Shown piece after piece: positions 1 through 39,600 of a DNA stretch of 64,000 bases. This DNA comes from Callorhinchus milii (taxonomy: Eukaryota). The notes beneath the pieces were generated by a model. It saw only the letters and a list, made by a program, of their open reading frames with translations, made no database searches and was not told the DNA's origin. How positions within the stretch are numbered: position 1 is the stretch's first letter; each line of letters starts with the position of its first letter. The stretch is from the NCBI RefSeq assembly GCF_018977255.1, contig NW_024704772.1, forward strand, positions 558,001 through 622,000. The letters are read 5' to 3'. Both the position numbers and the translations under genes were made by a program.

Positions 1-355
1 TGCTATAAACATTGCTGGCTCGTGAGGTTAGGGTTGAAGATAGAAAATCCTTCAGGTTCGTTCATTACTTGGCTGTGATGCAGTCCCTCCTGCCCTGGGA
101 GAAATGACCTGCCAACACTCGCTGTCAAGTGTCGCACATGATTGACAGCCAAGGGCAAGGCACTAGTTTCGCCCACAAAACACACAGTCACTGCACTTTA
201 CGGAACATGGTGTGAAGCGCTTTGAGACGTCTCGATGACGTGGTAAGGCGCTGTATCAAATGCAAGGCCAGCCCTGACTCTACTCCTAATTACAACCCCC
301 AAGATAAAATCCCTCACGAAGGGGGAAAGATTGTGTGACTGGGAGAGATACTCAC

Positions 356-410
356 ATGGACCCAGCAGGTAACCTGCACTGTTTAATGTCCACCCTCGCT
401 TGTCCTTGGC
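356..410 (-). CDS. GAL: Galanin-family exon encoding AKDKRGWTLNSAGYLLGP (55 nt)
   Basis: tttttcag acceptor and GTGAGT donor; exact galanin(1-13) after KR. Confidence 0.96.
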
Positions 411-893
411 CTGAAAAACAGGTTACATTTCAACATTAACTCTCTTTCCCCAATTTCTTTCTTTCTCTCTCTCTTTCTTTCTGAATTTCTTTCCTCTTGT
501 TTCCTCTTTCTTACTCTACTTATTTTTCTTTAATAGCATTTTTCTTAATTGTTTTACTTAAGCCACTTAAGCGCTCTGCAAGTTGTTGTTGACTTGGAAT
601 GAAAACTGAGATTTTCCTGCCTCATGGACTCACAGGATAAATCACTGAGCCATGGGGGTAGGGATCATTGTCAGGATATTACAGGAGAAACCTTGAACTC
701 AATCTGACTCACACTCACTCAATACATATTCACTTGTCTACAACAAATGGACAAAACCCCTCACAATTTACTGAGCATAGACAATGCTTTCAGGAACAAA
801 TATTCACATTACCATCACGCCTAATCCAAAACATTCGGTCACCAAAACGCAAAGGATCATGGAAATGCAGAACAGCTTTCTCGAGGCTTGCAT
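356..893 (-). CDS. GAL: Galanin-family prepropeptide, 5' part (GAL architecture; GALP-locus candidate); continues beyond the window start
   Basis: Exons 893-813 and 410-356 splice in phase 0 to MQASRKLFCISMILCVLVTECFGLGVM-AKDKR-GWTLNSAGYLLGP: signal peptide, KR cleavage site and the invariant galanin(1-13). The family is certain; GAL versus GALP is not. Confidence 0.93.
813..893 (-). CDS. GAL: Galanin-family signal-peptide exon (81 nt)
   Basis: ttctgtcttcag|ATG ... ATG|gtaatg; hydrophobic 27 aa resembling fish preprogalanin leaders. Confidence 0.9.
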
Positions 894-1093
894 CTGAAGA
901 CAGAAGAAGAAAAAAAGAAATAATTTATTGCATATAAAAGACAGGGAACAAGGAAAGAACTGGCTGATGTGCAACTCTGTCAGAATGCCTTTCAGGAGCG
1001 AGAGAATCAAGGGATTAGAATTTGAGAGAATAATTGTTTTTTTGTTTTAATAGGATACAACTGCTCAAAAAGAGCAAAGTCATAAGAGTCTTG

Positions 1094-1468
1094 ATAATAA
1101 TAATAATAATCCTGGCATTTGACGCAGCGCCTTATCAGGTCTTCGAGACATCTCAAAGCGCTTCACAGAATATACTGTAAAGTGGATTGTCTGTGTATTC
1201 TGTGGGCGAAATGCAGCAGCCAATTGCACACAGTTGGTGTCCCATTAACAGTCATGGATTGAGTGAACATTATTTTATTTTTGAAGGGATTATTAACCCC
1301 GTAAAGCGATCCGCCAATCAAATAACAACCAGGTTCCTACTTACTGCTGAGTAAACAGAGGTGTTGGGAGTAAGGAAACTTGCTTAAGGTTTCATCCTGA
1401 CTGGAAATCAAACCAGGGTCCCCTCGCTTGAGAGGCGAGTGCTTCAACCACTTCGCTACAGGAACTCC
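1094..1468 (-). mobile_element. tRNA-derived SINE, near full length
   Basis: Pol III A/B-box head, shared body and (TTA)n tail; same family throughout the window. Confidence 0.9.
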
Positions 1469-1583
1469 AAATAACGAAACATGTCCTTGCGCTGCTATTA
1501 ATCTGGTATTTATGATACTCTGTAAATTAGCGACGGCGGTAATCTCAACAATAATAAAATTACAAAACAAAATTGGTTCTTAC

Positions 1584-1760
1584 CGTGATCCGGAAGCAGA
1601 CAAAAAAAAGTTTGAAACAACTAGAAACTGTTCAAATAAGCCAGCTACTGCTTTTTAAATTAATAAAATTTTCGAAAATAAAATTAAACCATTGGACTAA
1701 GGATGACAGCAAGCTCCCCTGAAAGACAAATAGCCGAGTGTCGGAGAGAAGCGTGGCAAG
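1584..1760 (-). other. Possible non-coding first exon of the galanin-family gene
   Basis: Good - strand donor (CACG|gtaaga) at 1584/1583, about 0.7 kb upstream of the ATG exon; the 5' end is a guess. Confidence 0.3.
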
Positions 1761-3065
1761 GATGGCTATTTATCTGGGAAAGAAAACAATATAAGCCCTT
1801 TTTTTTTCATTTCACGTACATCTACCCAGATTGTGTGAAGCATAAAAGACTTTTCGGTAAACAAACTCGATTTTTTCAGCTGTATTTTTTGTCAGGAAAA
1901 TGGCTCTGATGGAGGTAATTATTGATAATTGACTCCAGGATTACTGTGAAGGTTAACAGGAGAGTGCGATATGTTGTTTTTTTTTGCCTAAGTGTTTTTT
2001 TTCCCACTGTTTTTACAGTGAGGAGGAGGAGGAGGAGGAGGAAAGGATCAGAAGTCGGAATTGTGCCAGAACTGCCCACAAAACACCCAGCCGCCCCCCC
2101 ACCCCCCCAAAAAAAAAATCGAGCTACAATGTTAAGAGATTGTAATGAAGGGTGCGATCATGTGGAATTTAATTGAATTTTGAACCTCGGGTCCTCTCAG
2201 TTCTTGCTGGCATCTGAACTGCACGAGTTTTCTAGCATTGTGTTCTGCCATTATTACATTTCAAAAGGCATCAGTGACCACAGCAGCGGTAAACAAAACC
2301 CTAAAGGTTGACTTTCTCTCCATGAAAGTACATTTCTTTTAAGAGTAATGGCTGCCTCTTTACTCCATTAGAACATTTGTTCGGTAATAACTATAATTAT
2401 ACATGAATTATCCTCATGTGCTTCTAAAGGCCTTCCACTGTTACCAGGTAATTTGACAGCATTAATGATAGCTAACAGGGAAAGGGACCCAGGTTCGGTT
2501 CAGTGGCTTGGAATAATTACACAGAGACGTTTACAGAGGAACATTTAACCTGAGAAAGAATGAGTAGCCTGAAGGTCTTTGCAAAAAAAAGTAAAGTAAA
2601 ATATTTGAAACAAAGATTATAGTAATAAAAAGTAATCCTTGCATTTGACGTAGAGCTTTACCACATCGTTGAGACGTCTCAAAGCGCTTCACAGAATATA
2701 CTGTAAAGTGGATTGACTGCAATTGGGAACTGGTGCTTGTCAGGGTTATTCCCCCGGACTGGGAGAAAGCTGTTTAGTGTCCGACTGTAAATAGGAATAG
2801 GCGGAAGCACTCCTGTTACCTGTCACATTCTGACACACCATTAGAACAACATGTTCAATCGTATTGGCTTTAGATGACAGGGATTTTGAGAGGCAGTTGA
2901 TGAAATTACCGGGAGGTAATTGGGTGCTAGGATCTAAACCCTTTCCTGTGCACAAACTCACTCGCACGGACACATGTGTTTCTAGCTAGCACCTTTGGCA
3001 CCATCTCAGAGGCAAGGTTTATTTATAGGCCAGCATGACCAAGAAAGAGTTGTTGATTGACTGAG

Positions 3066-3488
3066 AAGCGTTGTGGTTAGAGCGCTCACCTCACAAGCCA
3101 GAGGATCCGGGTTCAATTTCCGGGCAGGACGAAACCTCAGGCTAAGTTTCCTTCCTTCCTCCACACACACACACACACGCACACACACACACGCACGCCC
3201 CTGCTTAACCAGCAGTAAGTCAGAACCCGGTTGTTAGTCGATTGGCAGATCGCTTTCCGGGGGTAACAATCCCTCAAAAGAATAATGTGGTCACTTAATC
3301 CACGCCTGTTTGTGGAACTGTTAGCGCCCGACTGTAAATGGGACTAGGAATAGGCGGACTACAGCGCGGAGTTGGCTGCTGAGTTCTGCCCACAGGTCAC
3401 TTCACTTCACAGTGTATCCCGTGAAGCGCTTTGAGACGTCTCAGCAATGTGATAAGGTGTTGTATCGAATGCGAGGATCATTATTATA
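3066..3488 (+). mobile_element. tRNA-derived SINE
   Basis: tggttagagcgctcacctcacaag head ... gcgctttgagacgtctc ... ggatcattatta tail. Confidence 0.9.
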
Positions 3489-5091: not shown

Positions 5092-5290
5092 ACAACAACA
5101 ACTTGTATTTATATAGCTCCCCTCACGCAGTGGGGAGGGTTGGGGGGGCGGGGGGGGGGAAGGTGATGGTATTCACGGTCGAAGAGGAAGGTCTTCAGGC
5201 ACGAGCTGAAGATGGGGAAGGAGGGGGCGAGGCGGAGGGAGGGATGGAGGAAGAGCGTTCCAAAGTTTCGGGGCGTAGTGGCTGAAAGCG
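5092..5290 (-). mobile_element. L2-type LINE 3' fragment
   Basis: Degenerate ...SSCLKTFLFD ORF2 end plus (TTG)n tail. Confidence 0.65.
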
Positions 5291-5994
5291 CCACTTCCTG
5301 CAGAGTACGTCAATGTCAATGGGGTCCCCTCAACTTATGATGGTGAACGTGTTAGTTACGACCGAAAGGAGAAGAATATTGGTTGAGATACCTTGGCCTC
5401 CCAGAACATAAAGAGAAAGACTTATTACACAGAGTGAGAAAAGCACTGACATTTTAAAAGGCTACTATTACGGCATTCTATTCATTCTGTCTAATTTACT
5501 GTAGTGCACAATCGGGTGAAACAATATAATTGCAGTATTAGCCACAGGAGCGGAATGAATGGGCTGAATATTTATTAACTTGGGTATTATTATAAAACAA
5601 AGATGGAGCTAACTTTCAACCTCAAACCACTGATAATCACAGCAATCAATAATTAGAGTGACAGAACGCCTTTCACCAAGCGAGAGTCTTAGAAAGATTC
5701 ACAAACAAAATATTTCAGTGGGATGGACCTATCACACCAGGTTAGAGCATTGTCACCGAGTCTGAAAACAACCGGGAATAACGAGTTCAAAATCTAACCC
5801 CTTTCACAGATCACATCATGAGCCCAATCAATCCTTCCAGAATATTAACTCTACTGTCTTTCCATTCCAGGATCAAACCGTTTCTTAAATAAGTCCCGCT
5901 AGATAACGTCAGCAAGCCATAATCAACATGTGTGTGTATGTGTGTGTTTGTGTGTGATGAGCACAGCACTGAAACCTTTTTATTGTTCCATCCC

Positions 5995-12000: not shown

Positions 12001-12102
12001 TAGAGCGAAACAACAGCAACCTGTGGATGATATCTCCCCGTGATTTTCTTTCCCCGTGCCGCGGGGAAAACACTGAGGAGTGAAGTAACAGAGCATGTCT
12101 AA

Positions 12103-13905
<1,803 letters not shown>

Positions 13906-18817: not shown

Positions 18818-19064
18818 TTAAACAGGTGGAGGAGCTCCATGTCTCAACCTAATCTGAGGGCAGAGAATCGCCTTTAAGATTGACCAGACATTGCCATCAG
18901 CAAACGTTGGGAAGAAGTGCTTCTGGCAGCACATGGGGATAAAGGAGAGCAAGTTGATAAACGTCACAAATATCAAGGTTAGAACCACCATAAAGCAGAT
19001 GAGACGTGCATTGTTAACGGCCTGAGAATAAAACCCAGCCAGCAGCTCGGATACGTCTTCAAAC
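18818..19064 (-). CDS. KASH5: KASH5-like last exon: TM helix and luminal KASH peptide
   Basis: ctttgtag|G FEDVSELLAGFYSQAVNNARLICFMVVLTLIFVTFINLLSFIPMCCQKHFFPTFADGNVWSILKAILCPQIRLRHGAPPPV*. Confidence 0.92.
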
Positions 19065-22000
19065 CTACAAAGTAAAAAAGAATAAATGAGATGACCATTT
19101 TAAACAACATTTTAGGACTACACTCTAGCATAGAGCATATATATTATATAATTATATATTGTATAATAATAATCCTTGCATTTTAATACAACACCGTATC
19201 ACGTCGTTGAGACGTCTCAAAGCGCTTCACAGAATATATTGTAAAGTGAAATGACTATTTTGTGGGTGAAACATAAAAACATCTATCTTAAGCTCTAATT
19301 ATAACAATAGTTTTGCTATGCATGGGCAAGATAATAACTCTGAAGATTCAAAGACTGTCACTGGCCTATTCCTCAGATCAAATAACAAATGCAGTGCAAC
19401 ACTTATCATGTACACTGCCCACAGTTCAGTAATTCACTGCAGATTATTCACTAATACATAGCAACAAGCCTTGCATTTTACACAGCGCTTTTTCACATGG
19501 GGAAGATGACTCAAAGCACTCCCAGGATTTACTGTAAAGTGTAGGGACTGCATGTTTTTATAGGTGAACAGAAGAACCCAAATACTGTAGTAATAATAAT
19601 TACCCTTGGGTCTGGGGTATGTGTCCCACCCTAACTGTCCTTTTCCGTGGGACATGATGAAGACCAGACAGTTGGGGGTGTTTCATCTGCACCCTGTTGA
19701 AATGGGGGGGAAATAAATTTAAATTAGGTATAATTCGGATCATCCCACACAGGTTGAATTGGTTCTGAACCACCGGAGGCATACATTATTCTAACAAGAG
19801 CTGTAATATGGCGGTCAGCATTATAAAAGTAATCTCTGCAGCAAAAGATGCAATAGCATGTTAACCTAAACAGATAAATGTGCTTTTTACCAGTGAACCC
19901 ACAAATGGGTAATGCAACAGTACACACTTACCTCATTCTTTCAACTCCTTCACAATTATCTGCCCATTTACAAAGGTTCCCTCCACCACACTTCGGGGTA
20001 ATTTTGGAGTAGGGTTAGGGTTTGCTGTACATCCAATGGCTGCGTAAACTGATAAGTAAATCTATTCAAACACTTACTCCTCCGCTGTTCCCGGCCCTGC
20101 TGATTGTGGCTGCACAACATTCCATCCCACATACTGCTGAAATGAAACAAGATTTAGACGTCATCAGTCAAGGGAACACACAGGCAATCCTGGACAGTTG
20201 TGTGTGAACTACAAATAGGATTCTGGACAACTTTTGAGTGAAATCGCACAGGGTTCAGAAGACATGATAAAACATTGTCATCAGGACAGAACTGGAACGG
20301 TACTTGTTCTGGATAGACACAAATAAGAAGCTGGTTATTCTAATCAAATGAGCCAAAGAGTCAAACTCCTCTGAACCTCTCTTGTGATCTGAATCACAAG
20401 ATAGGCTTGAAATCCTTTCCGAGTGCACGTGCAGAAACATTCCCTTTGTTCACTGCCGGCGTCTCACCTTTATGTTGTCTCCAGTGCCTTCAAAATGAGA
20501 AATAGATGACTTTTCATAGTAGGGTACTAGTGCACGTGCTGAAAAACAACAAGATCTGGTTTTAAAAAAAAGCTTGTGGTTCATGCATAAAGAGTAAGTC
20601 CTTGAGCTAGGTACAGGAAAGTGATAAACTGTACAATACTGCATGATTTTGGAAAGCTTATTCTACCAACCAACATTACAGTATATTACAATTATAGTAT
20701 AACCAACAGTTCTAGGGGAACACAACTACATCAGCCTACCACTCGATGTGCAATTTGGTTTGATAATAACAGGCTCCACAGCCAAGAACATGCAACTAGG
20801 CACAATCTAATTATCTGCTGTTACCACTAAGCAAGTGACTTTGTTACCCATACAAAGCTAGGCTTACGGTTTTTGAGTCACATTTGTACAATGACAATAT
20901 CTGTACAAGTCCGTCAAGTCCTGTGTTATTGAAGAGTTACCAGCATTTCCACAGTTGGGAGGGATTTCGTTCATCCATTTATTGCAATGTTGGATGATTA
21001 TCAAAATACTCTCAAGTTCCTCAAATTCTCTCTCATGGATGTATTTGGTATTGCTGATGTATTCCATCATCGTATTTCTCTTGACAGCGAAATTCTCCTA
21101 TAATGTGAAGAAAACACACTCAACTCAGGCTGTGTGCGTTGTTACTGGAACTCAATACAGTATTAATAATAATAATCCTTGCATTTGATATAGCGCTTTT
21201 CACGTCGGGAGGACGTCCCAAAGCGCTTCACAGAAAACACTGTAAAGTGAATTGACTGCATATTTGTGGGCGAACGCGGCAGCCAATTGCGCACAGCAAT
21301 GTCCCACAAACAGTCGTAGATTGAAAATGACCAATTTATTATTGTTTTTGGAGGGATTATTATTAGGTGTGTGGAGTAAGGAAACTTGCCCAAGGTTTGG
21401 CCCTCTGCCTGAAATTGAACTCAGGTCTCTCACTCACTTGTATTAATCAAGGCTGAACTACAAATGAGACATATTGACATCTTTCTCTAAGGGGGAGGAA
21501 TAATCTGCTGTTACAGTTGACTGCACTTTGTGTTAACTCACTATGGTTTAAAATGAGACCATTTTAAAATCTGGCAGAGTTAAAATATTCCAAAACACTG
21601 GATATTAAGCAGAGCAGCCAGACAACATTTAACAACATAGGAACAGGAGTAGGCTATTCAGCTCCTTGAGCCTGTTCTGCAATAAGATGGTTGATCTGTC
21701 CCTCAACTCCAATTACCCACCTTTGCCCCATATCTCTGGATACCCTGATCTAACAAATATCTATCCACCTCAAGCAAAGTTATTTAACGGTTTTCCATTC
21801 AATCACACTTTTGCAATAAACCTTCATTTAAAAAAGTGGGATTGCATTAATTTTATACAATTGATTAGCCACTAGATCAATCTAAATATGCAAGTTACTG
21901 TCAGAATTCTATAGAATCTGGAACCACAGATTATTTAAGCACTACCAGTATAATAGGGCTCTAGGCACTTACTACGGACTATATTTTACTTACACTGTAG

Positions 22001-25000
22001 CCCCAATACATGTCTTCTTCCGAAACCAGCTCCTTATACAGTCGCTCAAGACTTCCTGATCAATAGGAAAAAAATTGCATCTGAAGTAAAAGCACTGCCA
22101 AAACACATCAATGGGAATAACTAAAATTGGGCAAAATGTGTATATTATATTTTTTCAAAATGCATCATTCAAGAGATCAGAGGCTTAAATTACCTTATAA
22201 TGTAAGGTGTAGGGCAAATGCAAGGTGAGAATACACTGCGTTGTGAAACATTTTGCACACAGAAACACTCGCGTGATAAAGGGTTCCAATGTTTTACAGT
22301 GCTTCAGTCGGAACTTAATGAGTTCAATATTAATAGTGCCTAGGTATCCACTACACTCTCTCTACATAAGCATAAGCTATAGATAGCATCATTATTCTAT
22401 TCCCAAAGTCCAGTCACGTACTTTGTTGCTGACAAAGGCTGCGACTCAAACCGTGCCATGCTTTCTGAAGCTGTACTGCCACCGAGCCGAGGGAACATCT
22501 TGCTCTGTTCTCCTTCAGTGTCGTTTCCCCAAGACAAAAAGGGCAATGCTCTGATGGTACGTCAAACCTGAGCTGCTGCTGGGGAAAGGTAACGGTCAGT
22601 GTAACAGGACTGGTAGCGCTTAGCACCAAACAGCAGAGGTAGCACATGCTAACAGACCAGGCTTGAGACAACCATTCCCATTCAGTAGTCTAGATATTAA
22701 CCCAGCAAATCTAGACAGTTTTCTGATTCATGAGGAACTGCATATCAAGCAACCCATCATATGAATATTACCTGCAGTTCTGTTTGAGTTGCTTGCTCTG
22801 CCACAGTAGTTATTGAAATAGTTTGCTGCACACAGCTCCGAGTCTCCATGATCACTCTGGCAGTTTCTCTTTCCCGCCTGTCAACTCTGGCCTCCGTAAT
22901 TCTCTGACTATTCGGACTTCCCTGGCTTGCCGCTCTCGGAAGCTGCGTCTCTCTAAATAGTCTTCCAGCAGCGCTCAACTCTTCACTGGACTCTTCCTCA
23001 GTGACAGACCTGCCATTCCATTTCAATTTTCTGAGATAGGGCACAGGACTGCCTCGCTCCTCAGGCAATGGGTGTTCAACCTGACCTAGAACCTCCTCCA
23101 AACCATTTCTGAAAGCCAAGAAATGCATCCAAAAAAGAAAAAACAGTTTACATCCTGTTATATCCTCACCAGCTTTGTGAGAGAAGTGCAGCCTGCCTCG
23201 CCCTTCATTCCTGAGGTGAAGAGACCAGACCTCACCAGGCACCACATTGCCATACTCAACAAGATTTATCTCTGCTCTTAGGCACAAAACTGTGTCCTAC
23301 TCTTCATTTACACAAGGGACAACAACTTCTCACAGAAGGTGGTCAAATGGAAGAGGACACAAGCGCTCTGGGACACTGCCCACGTAAAGGGCCCTGTACA
23401 AATGCAAGTTGTTGTTTTATAGCACAATGTACTTATAAGTGAAACTACAAAACAGTGAAATCTGGAGTATTAGAGAAAAATGTGAAATGAAAATAAAATA
23501 CAAGTGCCTGACTTTCCTACAAATTAAATATAATACATCCATAATTGCTGCACCTTAGGCTAACCCAGATAGGTACCTGAAGTGTGGATGTCGTTCTGTA
23601 TGATGGCAGTCCTGTGCAATTGCCCTCAACTCTGCAGCTAATTTACTTTTGTACATGTCCCAGATGATCTTAGTGTGAAACAAGCAGCTGATTTTCTGCA
23701 GAAATATTTTTATCTCCTCTTCAAATTCTTTTTGTAGTACCTGCTTGTAACAGAAAAAGGTTTCTGTTGATAATCAGGAAGCAAAACAACTTTAGCAATT
23801 CTAAAATAGATACATCAGTTTGTCAGCTTTAATACCCAATTGTTATTCCTGGTTCCAAGCTTTCCCAGGATTGGAAGGCAGAACAATCAGCTCCCTAAGA
23901 GTCAGAAGCAAACAGTTTCCCTGACTAAAGCAACCGGATCTACTCAGACACACACAGGGATCTTCAGAGGAAGGGTCCAGGGGATCTTCAAACCACATTG
24001 ATTTGTGGTCAATACTATAATTTCCTCTAAGCATGCATTTTGCTTGAGTAATGCACAGCTGTATGTAAATAGGTCAAACTGAGAAGTTAGTTTTGGGAGA
24101 CATTGCTGTTCCAGCATTCAGCTGGTTCCCAATGAGTTGTTTATTTGCTGACAATGGGGGTCTGATTTGAGGTTGTGTAAAGGGGGGCTCCAGGCGGAAA
24201 CCGATCCATGGGAACATCATTCTTCCAGAACAGAGTTCATGCAGGTGGCTAGGATTTATAACAGGATTAGGGATTAAGGAATATTAAGAAATGCCATTAA
24301 GAAATAACCTAAATTAGACTCTAATATTCTTAATTCATAAGTACCAAAGTGCAGGCTTATGAAATAGACCAGAGCAAGATTATGCTGTGGATCTGAGAGG
24401 GAAACAAGTCAGATAACAAAGCATTCATCGCATTTCTAAACCTAGTTAACAACTGATGTTAGTGCTCCCTTTGCCATGGAAACCTGCCTCAGGTGTTCTG
24501 GTCATCTCTCTGGCGCTAGAGACGTCAGCAAATTGCTTGATGCGAATCATCAAAGCTTCCATCTCCTGCTTAAACTTGCGTGCCTGGAATCAATAGAAAC
24601 ACAACATGAGATCATTCTCCTTCACACACGGTGAGACGGAAATGCTTGCTGTCACTAAAGCATTAAATTAGAACCAGCACCTGCATGTGCAAACTCAAAT
24701 GATGTAAATAAATCAAAAGGAATGAAAGACCTCTAATAATTGGGAAAAATCAAAATGCTTCATTTCTTTGCAAAGTTTAACATCTACGCAAATGTAAGCA
24801 GCCTCCTGTAAATAATGTCAACCATGAGGTCTGAAATGTGACCATTTTCTTTTAACTAACTTACTAGTTCCTGGGTGATTGTCTGAAAATCCATCCAATT
24901 TAGCTGAGAGCACATGTGACCTAGAAGGTCTTCGATTTGTTGAGCTGAGTCACTGAGTGGCATCATACCACATAGCGGTGTGGGTAGGTTATCCACAGCC

Positions 25001-28000
25001 AAGCTGGTCTTCTGCCAAGGGAAAGAGAAATATCACTGCTGTTGTGGTGTAATAATAATCCTTTCATTTGATAGAGTGGCTTATCATGTCTTCTAGACAT
25101 CTCAAAGCGCTTCACAGAATATACTGTACACCAAGCTTGCAGTTATATAGCGCCTCTCATGCAGGGCAGGGTCCCAGGGCGCTAAAGTGAATTGATTGTA
25201 TATTTTGTGGGTGAAACGCGGCAGCCTATTGGGCGTAGCAGTATCCCACAAACAGCCGTTGCCAAATTATTATTATTCGCCAATCGACTAACATCGGGGT
25301 TCCTACTTACTGTTAGGTAAACAGACGTGTAGAGTACGGAAACTTGCACAATGTTTTGCCCTGCACAGCAATCGAACCCAGGTCCTCTTAATCACGAGTG
25401 CTCTAACCACTACGCTACATGACTCCAAAATGTAGCATGTAATATTAGCAGTAAGTCTTCAAACAGTTACATCATTCTTCAGTTTTACTCATTCAACTAT
25501 TGTCAACTGGGAAAGATGGTTGGAACACAGCTTATCCTGCTAAATGTCCTTAACGGCCAAGATGAATCCTACCTGCTGAACCTGCTCTATTTCTAGTTGC
25601 AACGAGTGTTGTTGTGGGGCTCTAATAGGAACAGAGGAGTTCTCTGACTCTACACGCTGGGGGCCACAGCCTCTGCCAGAAAACAGGAGGGGGGGGGAAA
25701 ATATAAACAGATTTACAGCATCATTAAATGAGTTACTGTGAGATTTGAGCAATGGTACACAATTAACTTGAGCAATCTATGTCATACCCACTGCCAGTTG
25801 GAATAAGCAGCATTTTACACTTGACATTTATATTGCCAATGTTTAATCTGTGCCATTACTTTATAGAGGGCAGGGCAGACTTGCTGACGTCAGTCAGAAT
25901 AGTAACCACACACAATCCAGTCTGAATTGCTGAGTGTTTCCTGACTCAGATGTTTGCTTACAACAGACAAAAAGCAGACCGCCTAGCTCACAAAGCCAAT
26001 CATGGGAACGTAAGGATTATGGCTAGGATCCATGGGTTGCCCCACACTGAGATTCCCACTTTTGTTCCAGTATCCTATTTAAGAGCAGTGGAGTTTGGTT
26101 GGGATAGCAAGCCCAAATTTATATGGCAATAAAAATCTGACCTTTCTTTTTACAGACATATTCTCTCTTCATACATAAACCTAGTGTGAGCGTGGGTATT
26201 TGGGCATAATCCTGCATCCTAAAGTGTTTGTTTTCAAACCGGGGTTTCTAACTAGCAAACACAAACCACTGGATGGTGATCAGAAGCAGAAACTCAGGTT
26301 GCTATCTTTGATGTAATTCATAATTTCTGTAACTACACTCTGCTCTAAACGTTCACAAATATCATAGTAATTTCTACTGCTAGAAACTACAGCATCACAA
26401 TATACACACACATACACTTTCCCATTAACCTGGATATAGAATGCATGGTTTTATAATTCCACCCACTCCCAGCTCCTAACAGATCTATGTAAGCGCCAAA
26501 GCCCCATCTGGTGGAAATTTCCATTCCTGCTTATTATAATTTACGACTTACACAGATACATCTTCACACAGTAGTGGGGGATGACACTGTAATCTGCTTA
26601 TTTCTTCTTTCAGTCCCTACGATTGGGGAGAGGGAAAAGGAGGAAGGAGAGGGGGCGGGGGAGAGAGAGTTGGAAAGAAGTGGACAAGTTAATCTTCAGT
26701 TACTCCTGATATTATCACAAAAAGGCCTAGTTCAGAACCCCACTAAGATTACTTTTCCAGCATTCACTTTACCCAAATCTACAAAGTTTGAATGAATTCC
26801 AGCTTTAGATAAAAGTTTTCACAAATTTCGTCTCCACTTTGAATTAATCTCCCCTATTTATTAAAGCCTAACAGTTCTCTCAAAGTTAATTTTTGTTGTT
26901 GTTCATTCAGCTCTGCATGTGCTAATTATAGTAGTGGCTCTGTGAGTGTGGTAGTTGAGGGCCATAGAATTCCAACCAGTGCTACAATGAGGCACGATCA
27001 CAAGTCCTCACTCACTACACATACACAAGACCTTCACATTCTAAAAAAAATTGCCAGACTTCAAGCCGTCACAGCATGTCTCTGATGACACACACATACA
27101 CACACACAGAGGTCAAGCCATTTTTAGTGCGTGAGATGACACAATCTTTTAATCTTTGTTCTAATGTATATGGCGCCCCTTGTTTCCTTTAGAAAGAAAG
27201 TTGTCTCTGGTTGTCATTTTACCTTAATGATATTACAGTATTCATCTACAGTCAATTTCAATTCCTCTGCCTGACTTGTCTTCTGCAACACAAAAGGCAC
27301 ATGACTCAGAAGCTCAAAGGCATAAACACTGGGAGGTTTATAACGGATTAGCAATTACGTTGATTTAAGTGAGTTCCCGAGTATCACAAATAACACCAAC
27401 TAATTTCTCTAATCTGCAATATAAATCATCTCCGTGCTCTGTGCTTTCCTGTCTAAGAACATCTCACCATTCACTCAAATTCTTAGTTAATGTCCTATTC
27501 TGCAAAGTTCTTTCTTTGAGCTCCATCTTAATAATAACTCACCCAAATCTTGATAAAAGCAGCACAAATTAGCCACAAAGTCACGTCCGTCAGGGTTACA
27601 ACCTTTGAAAAGACTGCATTAATTTCCTTCATATTGATGTTCTTTCACCCAGTTAATGCCAAAATATTAGGAAACTGCACAAAGTAATTGGCAGATTCAG
27701 TGTAATTACAAACATACTTGTCAGTCAAAACTTGTGTTGTTCATACATACCTCAGTCAATAACACATCTTTAGTGGAGACAAGCCTCTTGATTTCATACA
27801 TCTGATTCTATAAAACAGAATTAGCATTTTTGACACTAATAAAATAGAACACCAAATAAAATTGGTCACGCACTTCATAGTTGTTGTGGGACACTGCTGT
27901 GCGCAAACTGGTTGCCACGATTCACCCACAAAACACACAGTCAAAACCACTTTATAGGGTATCCTGTGAAGCGCTTTGAGACGTCTCAATGACATGATAA

Positions 28001-31000
28001 GGTGCTATATCAAATGTAATGATTATTATTATACTTCACCAAAAGCATCTGGAGACGAGAATTTATTTTTATAACAGGAAACCTTAAAGAGCTAAAGTGC
28101 ATTTACCCTCAGGACATTAACAGTTTACCATTGTCACATCCTGAACCTATGCACTATGATAAATTAATATAATGGAGTTCACAACAGTTTTAAACATGAC
28201 TAATTCTAACCTCAATACTAAAAAGTTCCAGTAATACGGATGTGAAATTTTCTTTAATGCCTTTGCTTCTAGTTTCGGCAGAGGGAACAGAGTGAAAAGA
28301 CTGAAAGGAGGATCATCCTTTGATGGTTAACCTTAGAACAACCTTGTCACAATACATCAAACCTGGAAGAGACAGAACACTTCACAGCAATTTCTCTGGG
28401 AACAGTAATAAAGCACAGAGACAAGCAATTTTGTGTAAGTTGCTCAAGCACTTTGCTAACGTACCTTCAACTCTGCCTTCTCTGACACGAGTTCTTCAGT
28501 TCTCCAGTTCACATGGTCCTTCTCTGCTGCCAGCTTTCCATTCTACATTAGATAGTATACTTTCACTATTGGGTGATATCTAATGGTACATTCTGTAGGA
28601 TATTGCTGTGTTCCATTTTTAAATCTCTCTACCACCCCCCACCCATCCACTCCCAAAGGAAACTAGTTTAGATTAAGGAATGCATTTTAAAAAAAACTCA
28701 CTCCAAGGGAGTGATAAATCATAACATAACATGTAGGAGCAGGAGTAGGCCATTCAGCCCTTCGAGACTGCCCCGCCATTCAATCATGGCTGATCTTCTA
28801 ATCTAATTCCAGCTAATAACATAACCCTGCCTTATCCCCATATCCCTTAATCCCTTTTACAATCACCTCTTCCTGAAGCTCGTGAATCCCCATGGCCAGG
28901 TTCTGATGCTCCTTTTCCTTTTAAGAAAACACAATAAAACTTTAGGATGTCAAAAATATGTTTTTCTATTAGATTTCTTTAAGTTGTAATATTATGAGGT
29001 GAAAGGGGAGGAATTGGAGGCTAAAAAAACAAAACTGCTTATTGTCCTTCAATCTCCCTAACTATCTCAATGTATTCCTTTGAAACACAAAATAGATTAA
29101 CAACATTAAGTTTGGACCAGAAGGTCCAGAATGTAAAGAGTGAATGAACTCTACAACTTTGGTTTGAAGGCCTTTCTGTGAGTAGTTGACAGAATGGATG
29201 GGCCAGTTTTCGATCTCTGTGCTGTTCATCTCATGAAGCAAAATTACAACCGATGGAATAGTCTCGGAAAGCCCAAGGACTCAATAGCTCCTGACAGGAC
29301 TACAGCAGTGTTAAATCAGAATGTTGAGTCAGTGTTCGCATAAACGATTAACCTTACACCTAATTGTTTTCTTATGGACGTACCAATTGGCGGTTTTGTG
29401 CCTGCAAATTATAATTTTGATCTTCGAGATTCTTCACGATAGTCTTTAGATCTTCCAGTTCATCCTCCAGTAATTTAGCATGTAGCAAAGCCTGCTGAGA
29501 GCTGCAGAGAGTAACAGGCATCAGTGTTTCACAAAGATCATCTCAGGAAAAGTGTCACCTTCCTACTGCTGTTCCTATTAAGATCAGCTAAATCAACATA
29601 ACCCAGGGATCAACATTTGTCAAACCTTTATACAACAAAAAGATTACATTTGTAAAGCGCTTTTCACGTCGAGAGGACGTCCCAAGGTGCTGAAATAGCA
29701 TGTTTCACCCACAAAATAGAGTCAATTCAAGCGCTTTGAGACGTCTCAAAGACGTGATTAGACGCTATGTGTTCTTATATCAAATGCAAGGATTATTATT
29801 ATTACGGGGCAGCTTGTCAACTGAGGCATTACAGCACTGAACCATGAGACTGTCAGACATTTTAACAATCTGGTAATTGTATGAATCCTAAAACAATAGG
29901 AATCGGCAATGAGAGAAACCTCTCGAGGCACCCAGAATTGCTACAATCACAGACTTTTATCTGAACACCCTGGATATAGACCAAGGAACCTTTCCGTCCT
30001 GCAAGGATCAAAACCTTTTATAGCAATTCTCTTTCATGTTACCTTTTGAGTTTGCTTTTCAAGTCAAAGATTTCCTCAGTTAGCCGTGTATTCGCTTCCT
30101 CAAACCCCTCAACCGTTCTTTGTAGTTTTGCACTCTGATCCAGCAGCTTTCTGTTAGTATACTCTAGGCACTCAATATTATTGATCAGTTCTGTGATCTC
30201 TCTTGAGGTGGTGGGGCAGAAGAGAAAGAAAAATTAAGAGAAACAATCACAGGTTTCTCGGGCAAGATTACAAATGCTCAGACAGAACGATTACCTTATA
30301 CACTCACAAAAAGCATATACCAACAGTCATTTAGGAATAAATTGCCTCCCAAAAATATATTCCTGCCAAGTACCGTAGAAAGTGAAACATTGGTGTTATT
30401 AAATAGATTTACTGCTTAGTGTGGTCTAATCTTTCAACCACTGTCACTCTTATATTGCCAAACCTACTGGCCTCAGTCTTAATTCAACCCTTGAAATAGC
30501 TAAAAGATACTTACAGGTTGCCCCTGTTTATGTCGCCTCCATATCCCTCCAGCTGCCCTGGAGTTGTGACAGATCTCTTATCTATCAAAACAACATGTTT
30601 TGTTAAGAAAAGCCAATGAACCGCGAACATAATATGAAAGAAAATTAGGAACAAACTTTGAATACTATTACATGATAGTGAAGACTCCACTGTCTCAGGG
30701 TCCCAGAGATTACTTGGTGGGGTAAATTTTGCTCATTTTCTTGTTTTCCATTGTAAACAGAGTTTCAAGATTACTCTCAGCTCTATTAGTTTTGCTTTCT
30801 AATAATTTTTTAATTCAATTTTAAATTCACCAATGCACACAGGTAATTTTTTCCTGTTCTGGACAGAATATCAAGGTTATTCCCCAGAGGAAACCAACCC
30901 ATGAACAGAAAATATGAGCCATAGTTACACTCCCAATGTCCACCCAATAGACTGACATGTGTACCAACCTGATTGCAAAATGCAAATGTTTTCTATGCAC

Positions 31001-32622
31001 ACGAAATCTTCGTTCTGCTCACTTGAAAGTCTGTATTTTAAAAAAAGTCATTAGTCCCCTGCAACATTTGAAACAGAGCAGGATTGCTATTTTCACTTTA
31101 GTGCATCCCCCATGTTTGCTTGTTTTTCTCCTCCTCACAGACTGAACTGGAGTTCTTATCACAAAGGGGAAGGTTTCCAGCCATATTTAATTCCTGTTAT
31201 CCCTTTCAACTCAGATGGATTAGTTGCATTGGCAGTTTTCAGTACCAGTGCAAATAAGTGGATTAATTAAACTTTTAAACACTGTTTTAATAATCATATA
31301 TATTGCTACTTCACAATGTCCTGCAAACAGACCGTTTAATTACGAGGTTTTTTACCCCTCCTGTCTGCAATCAGCTATCCATGTCTTCATTATGGTGTGG
31401 AAGGTTTCCAGATCCACAGCAATGCCTCTTTCTCCAGGATCCAGCATGTTGTGCAATAACTTCAGTTGTCCCTTCTCACAGCTTTGACTTGTTACATCTT
31501 CCAAATATTCAATAATTCGAGATACGGATACTTTTCCTACACAGAGGAACTCAATTAAGGGCTAAAAAGGGCGCTTTTCAATTACAAATGATATTCTGAA
31601 TAACAATTTACTTAGTGTATTCATATTGGCTAGCAACATATTCAACAGATGTTGGTTTATCTGAGTTAGGCCATTAACTAGTAAACAAACCTTGTAGAGG
31701 AGCAGCTTTCCCATACACTCAATACAGTAGAACAATGCACTATCCCCTATACCCGTGATGACCAACATGTAGTGCAGGAGCCACAAGGCCATCAAGAGGC
31801 CCCCTGAACACTGGTTTGAGTTGAGGTAGGTCCATGTTCGATCTGTAGTGTGCTTTCATTTTTTTCTTGATTGAATATTTCTTGATTTATGGCATATACA
31901 CTGCTCTATACAGTAACACAATGTAAGATGTTACCTTTGCCTTCTGTATCACAGGCTTCAAATGTGCAATTCAACACATCCTCCTCCGTACAGCTACTTA
32001 TCTCACTGGAGTTCTCAACTGTGTCTTTTGTTAAAACCGTAGACATCAATTCTGAAATGACATGGAAAATATCTTCAATTACAGCCACACTTAAGCACAC
32101 ATTGCCAAGTGTTCACCAAAGTTATCCACTACATAAAGTAGCATCCCTGAGCTCCGTAACTATCTCGTCCAATTAAAAGTTGGTGTTCTGTTGGTGATAT
32201 AAACATATTGTGTGTCACAAATACTGCCGCGTTTACCTACAAATACCCAGTCATTATACTTCATTGTAAAGAGCTTTGAAACGTCCTCCCAAAATGGAAG
32301 GCGCTATACCAAATGCAAAGATTATAATTATTAAATCATTATACTTCACATCTCTCCTTCACAACGTATAAAAATAACCATTTGCTTGGGAAAGCGTACC
32401 ATGTGGTGCAATAGATGGGAATGATGAAATCCTCTTTTCTGGCACATAAAGTAAGGTTGAGCACCGTTCCTTGTTATGCATCACGCTATCCACACTGTAG
32501 CGCCATTTCGCATGTAATCCATTCGACTCACATGCCAACCTGGCCTGGAAAAAGCTCTCTACGGAGTAACTCTTTGTAAGATGACACAGAATTGTATCGT
32601 TCCTCCCATTTCCCGAATCCAT
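18818..32622 (-). CDS. KASH5: KASH5/CCDC155-like outer nuclear membrane protein (EF-hand region, coiled coil, TM, KASH), more than 20 exons
   Basis: Exon chain matches recalled KASH5 motifs (EEDVLNCTFEACD; LDPGERGIAVDLETFHTIMKTWIADC; LEGYGGD; SQQALLHAKLLEDELEDLK; NGKLAAEKD; SLQLEIE; LPTPLCG) and ends TM + RLRHGAPPPV*. No MRVI1/IRAG domain seen. Next to DKKL1-like and TEAD as in human. Some middle exons are unresolved. Confidence 0.88.
19932..19990 (-). CDS. KASH5: KASH5-like penultimate exon (acceptor uncertain)
   Basis: Strong donor GAG|gtaagt at 19932 in phase 2, matching the last exon; CGGGNLCKWADNCEGVERM. Confidence 0.45.
20468..20538 (-). CDS. KASH5: KASH5-like middle exon (putative)
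   Basis: gtttttcag acceptor, AAG|gtgaga donor; open frame RALVPYYEKSSISHFEGTGDNIK. Confidence 0.5.
20941..21097 (-). CDS. KASH5: KASH5-like middle exon (putative; alternative donor at 20868)
   Basis: ttatag|ENFAVKRNTMMEYISNTKYIHEREFEELESILIIIQHCNKWMNEIPPNCGNA|gtaact; phases fit both neighbours. Confidence 0.5.
21163..21433 (-). mobile_element. SINE (internally deleted subfamily with L2-type tail)
   Basis: Nearly identical to the copies at 32810 and 35102. Confidence 0.9.
21633..21770 (-). mobile_element. CR1-type LINE 3' fragment
   Basis: acataggaacaggagtaggctattcagc... motif, repeated at about 28727-28860 and 55865-56160. Confidence 0.7.
21994..22055 (-). CDS. KASH5: KASH5-like middle exon (putative)
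   Basis: tttcctattgatcag acceptor, |gtaagt donor; SLERLYKELVSEEDMYWGYS. Confidence 0.55.
22422..22689 (-). CDS. KASH5: KASH5-like middle exon (putative)
   Basis: Open frame TTEWEWLSQAWSVSMCYLCC...LCQQQ; phase 0 in and phase 1 out fit the neighbours; weak acceptor. Confidence 0.4.
22772..23108 (-). CDS. KASH5: KASH5-like middle exon
   Basis: ctttcag|A NGLEEVLGQVEHP...AEQATQTELQ|gtaata; 337 nt open. Confidence 0.65.
23577..23740 (-). CDS. KASH5: KASH5-like middle exon
   Basis: VLQKEFEEEIKIFLQKISCLFHTKIIWDMYKSKLAAELRAIAQDCHHTERHPHF; AG/GT flanks; phase 2 out fits the next exon. Confidence 0.6.
24484..24583 (-). CDS. KASH5: KASH5-like middle exon (donor uncertain)
   Basis: gattccag|ARKFKQEMEALMIRIKQFADVSSAREMTRTPE. 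Confidence 0.55.
24865..25011 (-). CDS. KASH5: KASH5-like exon
   Basis: cttggcag|KTSLAVDNLPTPLCGMMPLSDSAQQIEDLLGHMCSQLNWMDFQTITQEL|gtaagt. Confidence 0.75.
25050..25427 (-). mobile_element. tRNA-derived SINE interrupted by a short L2-type tail fragment
   Basis: Head and tail present; insert at about 25130-25183. Confidence 0.85.
25573..25672 (-). CDS. KASH5: KASH5-like exon
   Basis: tttctggcag|A GCGPQRVESENSSVPIRAPQQHSLQLEIEQVQQ|gtagga. Confidence 0.8.
26552..26616 (-). CDS. KASH5: KASH5-like coiled-coil exon
   Basis: Long pyrimidine tract then ag|GLKEEISRLQCHPPLLCEDVS|gtaagt. Confidence 0.8.
27223..27282 (-). CDS. KASH5: KASH5-like coiled-coil exon
   Basis: gttgcag|KTSQAEELKLTVDEYCNIIK|gtaaaa. 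Confidence 0.85.
27751..27807 (-). CDS. KASH5: KASH5-like coiled-coil exon
   Basis: ttttatag|NQMYEIKRLVSTKDVLLTE|gtatgt. Confidence 0.85.
28465..28542 (-). CDS. KASH5: KASH5-like coiled-coil exon
   Basis: atgtag|NGKLAAEKDHVNWRTEELVSEKAELK|gtacgt. Confidence 0.88.
28867..28917 (-). CDS. KASH5: KASH5-like coiled-coil exon
   Basis: cttaaaag|EKEHQNLAMGIHELQEE|gtgatt. Confidence 0.85.
29384..29501 (-). CDS. KASH5: KASH5-like coiled-coil exon
   Basis: ctctgcag|C SQQALLHAKLLEDELEDLKTIVKNLEDQNYNLQAQNRQL|gtacgt. Confidence 0.92.
30043..30201 (-). CDS. KASH5: KASH5-like coiled-coil exon
   Basis: cctcaag|A EITELINNIECLEYTNRKLLDQSAKLQRTVEGFEEANTRLTEEIFDLKSKLK|gtaaca. Confidence 0.92.
30515..30581 (-). 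CDS. KASH5: KASH5-like exon
   Basis: ttttgatag|KRSVTTPGQLEGYGGDINRGN|gtaagt; a further small phase-2 to phase-1 exon must lie between 30582 and 31355. Confidence 0.85.
31356..31536 (-). CDS. KASH5: KASH5-like EF-hand region exon
   Basis: gtgtag|KVSVSRIIEYLEDVTSQSCEKGQLKLLHNMLDPGERGIAVDLETFHTIMKTWIADCRQE|gtaaaa. Confidence 0.93.
31935..32051 (-). CDS. KASH5: KASH5-like EF-hand region exon
   Basis: atttcag|LMSTVLTKDTVENSSEISSCTEEDVLNCTFEACDTEGK|gtaaca. Confidence 0.9.
32400..32622 (-). CDS. KASH5: Putative first coding exon of the KASH5-like gene
   Basis: ATG at 32622, 74 open codons, CATG|gtacgc donor in phase 1 matching the next exon; ETS motif CCGGAAGT at 32669-32676 just upstream. Confidence 0.55.
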
Positions 32623-36269: not shown

Positions 36270-36657
36270 TTAGAAATATTCTGGTCTGAAGTGAAGGCCA
36301 ATATCGTCTGCCAGCCGTTTCAGCTCTTTGTACTCAGCTCGACTGAGATCCATCTTCTCTTTCTCATCATTCAGGCCAAGGATGAAGCTTTTCCCTTCGT
36401 CTACAACTCCGCGAATGTCGTCATCTATTCTCGGGTCACGGTCGGCCTCTTGGTTCTCTGCGTACAGGTAAGCCATCTGCGGGATGTTCTCAACAGCTAG
36501 GTCGTGCTCTTCGTCTCTTGGTAGTATATCCGGGTAATAATCTAGGTTGTTAGCTCTGCGGACCACCGACCGCAGGAGCGGTACTCTGTTCTCCTCCATG
36601 GAATCGATGCCAGTGATTATCTCGTCAGAGTACACACATGCAGAATCTAGGTCAAGG
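36270..36657 (-). CDS. DKKL1: DKK3/DKKL1-like last exon (last Cys and acidic tail)
   Basis: ttcccacag|[27 protein letters not shown]...[23 protein letters not shown]. Confidence 0.88.
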
Positions 36658-39600
36658 CTGTGGGAAGAAAAGGAATTTGTGAACTTTAGTAGGTTTTGTT
36701 AACCCGCAAGGGCTTACAGGAGCAAGATCCGAATCAAACCCCAGTGAAGCCAATAAATAATAATAATCCTTGCGTTTCATATAGCGCCTTATCACGTGTT
36801 CAAGACGTCTCAAAGCGTTTCATGAAATATACTGTGAAGTGGATTCACTGTATATTGTGTGGGCGAATAAAGGGCAACAAAGCAAAAAAAATTACTGTTG
36901 GCTTGAGCTGTTGTCAGTATTTATAAGACTGATAGACACAGATGGACAACTGGTCACTAAAATCAGATAGTCTGTCCATATCTGACTGGACCTCAGATCC
37001 CTACACTTTACATACTCTTAAAATGTCTGAAGTCAGGTTGCGTTTTAGCAAAGTATTTATGAATTTTTTTATTGCATGAAATCGTATTTTAATAAATGCG
37101 CTTTCTTCCAATTTACGGTTCTATTTTATCATTTAAATGTGGAATAATCTCTGGGTTTATTAAGAATTTTTCACAATTCTTAATTTTAAAACAAAAAGAA
37201 GTGCTTACAGACTAAGACCAGGTAGAATTTCATCCCTCAGATTCTCTCTCTCCTTACCGTGTGGAGACGCAGGTCAGTTCACCAGCACAGGGACAGAAGT
37301 CCTGAGGGTCATTGAACTTCAGTTCCCAGCCGATCAAACCCAATAGACCACTATCGGGTTGATAACATCTCTCCCCTTCTGTTGCCATTGGAGAGCACAC
37401 AGCAAATGGCAAAGCTTTAAAAATCAACGTAAACACATCAGGGACACATTACTGTACAGTGCATGAATTTCTATATATAACCTAGTGTTATGAAAGAAAC
37501 CATATTGACTTCTTATATTCCTTCAGCCATTACGCCCCGACCTCTGGAATTCCACCTTGCCTCCTCTTTGCCCGTCTTCAAATCGGCAAAAAGAAAGGGG
37601 AAAAATGAACAAGTTTTCACTTACAGATGTGATTGGCACAGCACAGGCCTGAATTGCAGTCACGCTGTCTGGTGCAAATCGTTCCCCTCTCGCCTCTGGA
37701 AAAGCCATCTGTGCACTTTCCCCACACACACAGATATCCTGGGCAGCACTCAGCTTCCCGGGAACACGCCTAACAGAGGGTGGGAACACGAAATAAAGGC
37801 AACAAATATTTAACGGATCACCTCTCTATGTGAGATGCCTCACTTGCCACACAATTAGTGTTCAGGCTGCCAATTGTAGCTAGCATTAGGTAGAAGGCTC
37901 TTTCTCTTGTCAAGTCACTGAAGCCAGGATGAGGCCTGCTATACATTTTGTGAAGGTGCCCCTGAGGCCTGGCCATCAGTTTCTTAAATGGTTTTGGTTG
38001 ATTGATTGAAAAGAATATGGCATTGCCTCACATGGGAAACAAAGCCATTTGTATCTCATACTTACAGCATTGATTAGTTTGCATTGCTGGCATTTTAATG
38101 TAGTCAGGGATGAACAGTATTCATTCTCTCCACAATCCGTGTCCATCAAGCATACCTACAAGAGGATAGCACTACTATTATAAGGCATCACAACTCTATG
38201 GATACCCACAAACACACCATACATACATTTACACACAACAAACTACAGAATATGCACCATACACACACAAATTATCCACACCATACACATCATACACACA
38301 CCTTACACATCACGCTCGCACACACATGGCATACATATGGGAAAACAGACAAAGCGTGTGTCAGTGTCTTCAGGGTAGTTAGGAATATAACTGATAGGGA
38401 GACTTTGGGGGAGAAGAGGTTTACTGTATATGCACAAAAATCCCAATTTCAGAATTATCCGTGTATATGGCATTGCAATGGTATCTGTTGCTGTGTAACA
38501 GGGAGAAAAAGCTGAAAGAAAAACATAAAAATGTTGGAAATGTACAACATGTTGATCATCATATGAAAGGTAAAGAGAGTTTAATTGGTCATTAAGCTAG
38601 AGAAACCCAGATACTATATTTAGGATTGAGAAAGTCAAGTGGGATCTGACCCAAACTTTAGAAAGAGATCAAAACTTCATAGCCTCTACCTACATTCACA
38701 GTACAGCTAAGTGGTGAATGAGGTCCTCATTAGCTAAATAGTTGTGATATCAGTGCAATAGTTGTGATTAAAAACAGCATACTCTGATGTCTGACGTCTC
38801 TGCTATGTGCTCCCAGGGCCATGAAGTAAATAACTAATATTTTTTTACCTGAGGGATGATGGGCAGGACATCAGGAGAAACTTCCTTCTCTTTCAAAGTC
38901 CTTACCTGGGACTTGAACCTACAGCCTTCGACTCAGAAGCAAGAGTGCTACCAACTGAGGCAGGCTACCACCTTGCTTAGAAACGTAAACGGGTCTCTAT
39001 CAGAGTATTCATTCATTTCATATTAGTCTCATTCTAAAACGTGCTTTGAGACATCTTTTACATGAGACGCTGTGTAAATGTAAGTTACTGTTGCCTGCAG
39101 GAGAGGAGGGAAGAAGATCGACGGAACAAATAAAAAAGAAGCAATGCAACAAACGCATAGAGGTGTCAAGGGAAAAACAGAAGAGCATCGATGGGCCCAA
39201 CACTTCCTTTTACTAGTGTTTCTGGTGAGTGTTGTGTTTTATCGCAATAATCCGTCTTATTCTGGTTCCGAATTTACTGTGTTAGTTTACTATTCGGCAC
39301 TGAGTCCTTTCAAACAATGTAAATGTTTCTAGCTATAACTAGTTGTTTTATTTCAGAACCTTCTCACGCTCAGTGTAACAGGCAATTCAGTGTGGCTCAG
39401 TTGGCTAAAATAGATCCAGAGTATGGTGGTCAATTATGAGGGAAGGATAGAATTTTCCTCTTTTAACAAGCTGACCCGAAGGTTTATCAGATGTCCATAT
39501 AGCCATACCTTTGGACTTTACTGTACTCGGAGCTTTTTTGCTAAATATTATTGCTGCATCTTAATGTTCTCTATCTTGTCTCATTTGCTGCTTTATCTTG

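What the first reader, a model, noticed from the sequence alone, without database searches (positions are those of the whole stretch)
356..893. Hidden galanin-family gene at a TEAD2/DKKL1/KASH5-type locus: candidate non-mammalian GALP ortholog
Seen: two small exons encode a signal peptide, KR and GWTLNSAGYLLGP; the ORF track misses the peptide exon. Known: human GAL sits with PPP6R3/CPT1A on 11q13, whereas GALP, usually described as mammalian, is on 19q13, the same arm as TEAD2/DKKL1/KASH5. Mammalian GALP has an N-terminal extension instead of a KR directly before GWTLN. Inference: this may be the genome-duplication paralog that became GALP, still processed like galanin.
Basis: partly seen in the sequence, partly recalled or inferred. 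Interest (0 to 1): 0.75.

Follow-up and report, generated by a model that had tools for sequence, protein, structure and literature searches.

The report
Elephant-shark galanin-2, likely GALP forerunner
This is a real, already annotated second galanin neuropeptide gene of the elephant shark, belonging to an old vertebrate 'galanin-2' lineage that likely, but not provably, became the mammalian appetite peptide GALP.

Summary
Two minus-strand exons (893-813, 410-356) join in frame to a signal peptide, KR and galanin 1-13, and the splice appears in 3 of 3 presumed-RNA runs but not in the DNA-like run. The gene is not hidden: it equals RefSeq NP_001279504.1, Callorhinchus milii 'galanin peptides-like'. 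The species has a separate canonical GAL (NM_001292769.1). The window gene groups with Xenopus gal.2 and shark, bichir, lungfish, lizard and turtle genes (GAL2; 99/100 support against GAL1). It lies beside KRASBL, KASH5, a Dickkopf gene and a TEAD gene, a block already drawn with 'galanin' in a published figure. GAL2 is therefore very likely a genome-duplication paralog of GAL. Orthology to GALP was proposed in 2014 for frog and coelacanth and disputed in 2016. My tests lean towards it: GALP falls on the GAL2 side in 8 of 9 trees and shares a 39-residue spacing with GAL2. They do not prove it: AU tests reject no alternative, profile scores are at noise level, and the human 19q13.33 block lists no galanin gene. 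About 70% likely. The scan's index showed no earlier galanin note.

The parts
813..893 (-). First coding exon: residues 1-27, hydrophobic signal peptide
   Evidence: 100% match to P0093 1-27; mean hydropathy up to 3.0 over 11 residues; covered by spliced contigs
411..812 (-). 402-nt GT-AG intron, phase 0
   Evidence: joint in 3 of 3 presumed-RNA runs, absent from X1; splice dinucleotides
356..410 (-). Second coding exon: residues 28-45, dibasic KR site followed by galanin 1-13; phase-1 donor
   Evidence: Pfam PF01296 E 1e-7; 100% match to P0093 28-45
1..355 (-). Start of the next intron (holds a dispersed-repeat copy at about 164-268); remaining coding exons lie left of the window
   Evidence: no match to P0093 46-121 in the window; self-BLAST repeat mask
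12151..13905 (+). Context: KRASBL, four coding exons (12151-12261, 12714-12892, 13099-13258, 13789-13905), 188 aa, CaaX ends CIIL; divergent to the galanin gene
   Evidence: Pfam Ras; exon join; C-terminal 29 residues same as C. milii KRASBL NP_001279499.1 printed in PMC9882654 suppl. file 1
18824..31561 (-). Context: KASH5/CCDC155-family gene (EF-hand, coiled coil, C-terminal PPPV end); limits approximate
   Evidence: EF-hand_9 E 1e-10, KASH_CCD E 8e-15 and 2e-10; PPPV-stop frame at about 18832 (no Pfam hit on it)
36270..46582 (-). Context: Dickkopf-family gene (DKK3-like/DKKL1), head-to-head with TEAD; upper limit by eye
   Evidence: Dickkopf_N E 5e-4, below cut-off, and a second Cys-rich exon; labelled dkk3l/dkkl1 in PMC9882654 Suppl. 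Fig. 7
62274..62520 (+). Context: TEAD exon with start of the TEA domain; the TEAD2 subtype rests on position and the published label, not on a tree
   Evidence: Pfam TEA E 8e-9

Best explanation
These two exons are the spliced 5' coding end of the elephant shark's second galanin gene (GAL2, RefSeq 'galanin peptides-like'), which likely arose from GAL in the early vertebrate genome duplications, is predicted to release a 29-residue amidated galanin acting on galanin receptors, and is likely the lineage that became mammalian GALP. Shown: exons, splice, identity with NP_001279504.1, separate GAL1 in the species, GAL2 grouping, neighbours. Inferred from established neuropeptide processing: signal cleavage, convertase cuts at KR31-32 and GKR62-64, amidation from Gly62. 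Inferred history: in the therian line the gene would have left the KASH5-PTH2 interval (which also lacks KRASBL in mammals), lost the KR before the core (so the 8-residue linker stays on as GALP's 'extension', with no insertion needed) and let the downstream part drift.
For: Exact match to P0093/P0013. Splice in 3 of 3 presumed-RNA runs. Separate C. milii GAL NM_001292769.1 printed in PMC6753867 supplement; other sharks and frogs also carry both types. Tree without GALP: 25 GAL2 rows versus 15 GAL1 rows, one branch, 99/100. 'galanin' is listed with krasbl, ccdc155, dkkl1/dkk3l and tead in 3 of 5 labelled krasbl rows of PMC9882654 Suppl. Fig. 7. TEAD2 marks the Kiss3/HSA19q paralogon (PMC4015844). 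For GALP: 8 of 9 trees place it on the GAL2 side with GAL1 intact. Basic site to last-exon boundary is 39 residues in 51 of 62 GAL2-class and 4 of 78 GAL1-class proteins (32-37 in 72 of 78), and 39 in human GALP; lamprey and C. milii GAL1 give 36, counted by eye. The core starts at residue 33 in GAL1, GAL2 and human GALP alike; a dibasic pair precedes it in 242 of 246 non-GALP and 0 of 30 GALP proteins. No protein of GAL2 type carried a mammalian name, and all named GALPs were therian (searches capped). GMAP similarity fades within GAL2 itself (41.9 bits Xenopus, 15.8 Anolis, 12.1 Danio, none in C. milii), which weakens the published objection that GMAP excludes GALP orthology.
Against: The full-length tree with mammalian GAL1 puts GALP beside mammalian GAL1 (branch 94/98). 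AU tests reject nothing (p 0.43, 0.28, 0.31). GALP's attachment inside GAL2 wanders (turtles, lizards, bowfin, sharks) and long-branch warnings were raised. Post-core profile scores of GALP (best 5.6 bits) overlap shuffles (max 4.4-4.5), and hhalign E is 0.14. The window gene itself has 36, not 39, residues in that spacing, and marsupial GALP about 41 (by eye). The human 19q13.33 interval with TEAD2-DKKL1-CCDC155-PTH2 lists no galanin-type gene, and PMC4992253 rejects the orthology for lack of synteny. No peptide or receptor data exist here.
Confidence: 0.7

Rival explanations
1. It is the GAL2 genome-duplication paralog, but mammals lost GAL2 together with KRASBL, and GALP arose separately from a duplicate of mammalian GAL that landed on 19q13.4.
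For: Full-length tree joins GALP with mammalian GAL1; this grouping is not rejected without the signal peptide (p-AU 0.28); no galanin gene in the human KASH5-PTH2 interval; KRASBL next door is lost in mammals and birds; argued in PMC4992253.
Against: The join vanishes when the signal peptide or the two mammalian GAL1 rows are removed; those signal peptides share an Ala/Pro/Gly/Arg-rich, Cys-poor make-up; spacing of basic site and exon ends in GALP fits GAL2 better.
Confidence: 0.2
2. GALP is a third ancient galanin paralog kept only in mammals; the window gene is GAL2 and only its sister or cousin.
For: GAL2 held together without GALP is not rejected (p-AU 0.31); GALP's place inside GAL2 is unstable.
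Against: Needs repeated losses in all non-mammalian lines; no third galanin type appeared among the hits; GALP is assigned to the same linkage group as KISS3.
Confidence: 0.07
3. It is the canonical GAL gene moved to a new place, or a chimaera-specific duplicate of it.
For: Its predicted peptide is 29 residues like GAL1, not 26 like bony-vertebrate GAL2; it is a long branch (0.79).
Against: Shark GAL2 also has 29; alignment scores 297-321 to shark GAL2 versus 181-214 to shark and ray GAL1; separate GAL in the species; same neighbours in other vertebrates.
Confidence: 0.03

Closest known systems
Callorhinchus milii galanin peptides-like precursor (NP_001279504.1, UniProt K4GL38/V9LKZ7)
   Same: Residues 1-45 are identical; it is this gene.
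   Different: Nothing seen; the annotation does not say GAL2 or GALP.
Vertebrate GAL2 group (Xenopus 'galanin prepropeptide, gene 2' NP_001137371.1 / XP_004916350.1; the Xenopus and coelacanth 'galp' of Kim et al. 2014; zebrafish-type si:rp71-1c10.8)
   Same: One clade against GAL1; similar signal-peptide end; KR-core-GKR layout; krasbl/ccdc155/dkkl1/tead neighbourhood.
   Different: Cartilaginous-fish GAL2 keeps 16 residues between core and GKR (29-mer) where most bony-vertebrate GAL2 have 13; the chimaera gene has Tyr at position 14 and no Pfam GMAP hit.
Canonical galanin (GAL/GAL1; C. milii NM_001292769.1; human galanin in PDB 7wq3)
   Same: Identical residues 1-13, dibasic sites, predicted 29-mer.
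   Different: Separate gene and clade; different neighbours (GAL1 neighbourhood recalled, not tested here).
Mammalian GALP (human P0236; marsupial P0253, P0311)
   Same: Identical core at the same precursor position; collinear exon-length pattern; no GMAP hit.
   Different: No dibasic site before the core (0 of 30), 60-residue mature peptide (PMC9764007), no significant similarity after the core, not in the KASH5-PTH2 interval.

Membership tests
Galanin family precursor | Conserved 13-residue galanin core (Pfam PF01296) | tested here: met
Galanin family precursor | N-terminal signal peptide on its own coding exon | tested here: met
   hydropathy and exon match; no dedicated signal-peptide predictor was run
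Galanin family precursor | Spliced transcript | tested here: met
   joint in 3 of 3 presumed-RNA runs; RNA status is the tool's guess; RefSeq NP_ record
Galanin family precursor | Mature peptide activates galanin receptors | not testable with these tools
   inferred from identity with residues 1-13 of receptor-bound human galanin
Canonical GAL (GAL1) ortholog | Groups with GAL1 in a tree | tested here: not met
   99/100 split; scores
Canonical GAL (GAL1) ortholog | GMAP domain after the peptide | tested here: not met
   no PF06540 hit on P0093 at E up to 10
Canonical GAL (GAL1) ortholog | Flanked by PPP6R3/TESMIN/CPT1A (recalled) | tested here: inconclusive
   upstream side holds KRASBL and KASH5 instead; downstream side outside window, no genome held; published figure lists kiss1/pth2 in the row that fits this window
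Vertebrate GAL2 group | Clade with Xenopus gal.2 | tested here: met
Vertebrate GAL2 group | KRASBL/KASH5/DKKL1/TEAD neighbourhood | tested here: met
   row-to-species mapping in the figure text is my inference
Vertebrate GAL2 group | Coexists with a separate GAL1 in the same species | tested here: met
   NM_001292769.1 in PMC6753867 supplement; its map position not tested
GALP as a peptide type | No dibasic site before the core, N-terminally extended mature peptide | tested here: not met
   window gene has KR; 0 of 30 GALPs do
GALP as an orthology group | Common clade in a precursor tree | tested here: inconclusive
   8 of 9 trees on the GAL2 side, 1 with mammalian GAL1; AU p 0.28-0.43
GALP as an orthology group | Shared immediate neighbours with human GALP | tested here: not met
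   human TEAD2-DKKL1-CCDC155-PTH2 interval lists no galanin gene; PMC4992253 says synteny is lacking
GALP as an orthology group | Same paralogon / chromosome arm | tested here: inconclusive
   literature only; GALP at 19q13.43, some 6-7 Mb away, is recalled
GALP as an orthology group | Synteny in monotremes and marsupials | not testable with these tools
   no vertebrate genomes available

The most novel reading that the evidence does not exclude
GALP is not a mammalian invention. [quoted passage not shown] Sharks, frogs, lizards and turtles would then carry the unremodelled GALP ancestor.
Probability: 0.7. Interest if true: 0.42.

Novelty: already known. Interest (0 to 1): 0.3.

Why it matters
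The gene is annotated and the GALP idea is in print, so a specialist would not be surprised. The origin of GALP is still a small unsettled dispute, though. A chimaera member dates GAL2 to the jawed-vertebrate ancestor, and the marsupial GALPs, spacing pattern and KRASBL block give concrete handles to settle it. If true, zebrafish, Xenopus and lizard gal2 become models for the ancestral role of GALP in feeding and reproduction, and GALP becomes an example of a new hormone made by losing one cleavage site.

Tried and rejected
A full-precursor GAL1/GAL2 profile over 1.84 billion representatives gave 117 hits at E up to 0.001, none a GALP by eye; GALP was reached only with a core-motif profile (best 120 of 809 listed, 8000 candidates scored). 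A marsupial GALP query found 3 proteins and no monotreme; this is weak evidence of absence. Profile scoring of GALP on GAL2 versus GAL1 (higher on GAL2 in 25 of 29, 17 of 29 with anamniote GAL2 only) stayed within shuffle range and the rows are related, so I do not count it as support. The ESM Atlas search with human GALP gave only generic prohormone neighbours. No run was on record as RNA. The 5' non-coding exon could not be placed: spliced contigs continue beyond 898 with unmatched letters, and candidate donors at 1584, 6970 and 9920 are untested. A motif scan found no kisspeptin or spexin in the window (motifs recalled). Rooting on the partial hagfish protein was unreliable (branch 3.3); no spexin was included in any tree. 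Kim et al. 2014 is not held and is known only through citing papers. One zebrafish atlas preprint was seen only as a search listing. Earlier scan notes had nothing relevant.

Full report
Observation. On the minus strand, exon 893-813 (81 nt) and exon 410-356 (55 nt) have canonical splice sites and join in frame to a signal peptide, a KR pair and galanin 1-13. Pfam Galanin hits the second exon at E 1e-7. Contigs of three runs guessed to be RNA, from three study codes, skip exactly the 402-nt intron; the best holder X1 covers the intron and shows no such joint.

Identity. A protein search with the peptide-exon frame returned 92 galanin-family proteins. One, P0013, and its cluster mate P0093 match the 45 spliced residues exactly. 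They are Callorhinchus milii 'galanin peptides-like precursor', NP_001279504.1 / K4GL38 / V9LKZ7. The gene is annotated, not hidden. The 121-aa precursor has the peptide at 33-61 followed by GKR, predicting a 29-residue amidated peptide. Its last 76 residues are encoded left of the window. No genome is held.

Two galanin genes. Its map position was not tested. A maximum-likelihood tree of 41 hand-picked precursors without GALP splits 25 GAL2-type from 15 GAL1-type rows at 99/100. GAL2 includes the window gene, sharks, rays, sturgeon, bichir, bowfin, some teleosts, lungfish, amphibians (Xenopus gal.2), lizards, snakes and turtles. Pairwise scores agree: 297-321 to shark GAL2, 181-214 to shark and ray GAL1.

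Neighbourhood. The nearest gene is KRASBL (four exons, 188 aa; the C-terminal 29 residues printed match NP_001279499.1 in PMC9882654), a RAS paralog reported lost in mammals and birds. Then come a KASH5-family gene, a Dickkopf gene and a TEAD exon. The text of Suppl. Fig. 7 of PMC9882654 lists 'galanin' with krasbl, ccdc155, dkkl1/dkk3l and tead in 3 of 5 labelled krasbl rows, two also with kiss and two with pth2. The PDF text does not keep rows and species together, so assigning them to shark, frog and lizard is my inference. TEAD2 marks the Kiss3 region, which is 19q in human (PMC4015844). A 162-kb human 19q13.33 interval lists CD37, TEAD2, DKKL1, CCDC155 and PTH2 but no galanin or RAS gene (PMC13431349). 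That GALP lies at 19q13.43, several Mb away, and that GAL lies beside PPP6R3/CPT1A is recalled, not tested.

Is it the GALP ortholog? I retrieved 30-odd eutherian GALPs and two marsupial ones. On 38 of 50 curated rows, the full-length tree puts GALP beside mammalian GAL1 (94/98). Those signal peptides share a skewed make-up, and holding GAL1 together costs only 1.2 log-likelihood units (p-AU 0.43). With the signal peptide removed, GALP joins turtle GAL2 (100/97), or lizard GAL2 when turtles are dropped (93/99). Six more variants under a simpler model all keep GAL1 intact and put GALP among GAL2 rows, at shifting places. That is 8 of 9 trees. AU tests reject neither GALP with mammalian GAL1 (p 0.28) nor GAL2 without GALP (p 0.31), and post-core profile scores are at shuffle level.

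Spacing gives a partly independent hint. From the basic site to the last-exon boundary there are 39 residues in 51 of 62 GAL2-class proteins, 32-37 in 72 of 78 GAL1-class proteins, and 39 in human GALP. Classes there came from profile scores; weak hits, long-insert isoforms and rows without the anchor, including the window gene, were dropped; boundaries are inferred from isoform pairs; related species are not independent. Against it, the window gene has 36 and marsupial GALP about 41, by eye. The core starts at residue 33 in GAL1, GAL2 and human GALP; a dibasic pair precedes it in 242 of 246 non-GALP and 0 of 30 GALP proteins. GALP's extension is thus most simply a lost cleavage site. GMAP similarity fades within GAL2 and is absent in the chimaera gene.

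Mechanism. Shown: a spliced gene encoding a secretory precursor layout. Inferred from established prohormone processing: cleavage at KR31-32 and GKR62-64 with amidation, giving a 29-mer whose first 13 residues equal those of receptor-bound human galanin, so it likely signals through galanin receptors. Inferred history: duplication of an ancestral galanin gene in the early vertebrate genome duplications (about 95%), with GAL2 later remodelled and moved in therians to give GALP (about 70%).

What is known. PMC4131245 and PMC9174643 (passages) report, after Kim et al. 2014, that galp and kiss3 share a chromosome in coelacanth and Xenopus. PMC4992253 (passages) calls these genes GAL2 and rejects the GALP label because they keep GMAP and lack synteny. 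PMC6971688 (passages) names si:rp71-1c10.8 as zebrafish's candidate galanin-like peptide. Kim 2014 itself was not available and may already include elephant shark. Ten library searches showed no paper that places the chimaera gene in GAL2 or tests marsupial GALP; subscription journals and most supplements were not covered. Papers seen: passages of PMC4992253, PMC4131245, PMC5207463, PMC9174643, PMC4015844, PMC7044129, PMC6971688, PMC9764007, PMC3516677, PMC13431349; passages plus two supplements of PMC9882654; passages, one section and one supplement passage of PMC6753867; PMC4772642, PMC6309708 and PMC7144826 gave nothing relevant.

Verdict. A real, known gene of a known paralog group. Interest 0.3.

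Noticed in passing
   Followed up: yes
window 36270-46582 (-): The Dickkopf gene at the DKKL1 position appears to keep cysteine-rich exons (DKK3-like), which human DKKL1 is recalled to lack; Pfam hits are below cut-off.
   Followed up: partly
window 18824-31561 (-): KASH5-family gene with EF-hand, coiled coil and PPPV end; a published figure labels both ccdc155 and irag2L here, so one gene may be split in annotation or two may be present.
   Followed up: partly
proteins P0160, P0249 (not in window): Stingray GAL1 precursors are unusually divergent; in Hypanus sabinus even the core's first and last residues are changed.
   Followed up: no
proteins P0253, P0311 (not in window): Marsupials (Dromiciops, Macrotis) have annotated GALP, although PMC4992253 suggested it may be limited to some eutherians; the bilby core begins with Glu instead of Gly.
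   Followed up: partly
window 894-12150: Spliced contigs continue upstream of the first coding exon with letters not matched in 1-1900, so a 5' non-coding exon lies further up, possibly near KRASBL; candidate donors at 1584, 6970, 9920.
   Followed up: partly
window 33678-33809 and 51560-51804: Two assembly gaps (runs of N); the region 34141-34922 next to the first holds locally repeated GC-rich sequence.
   Followed up: no
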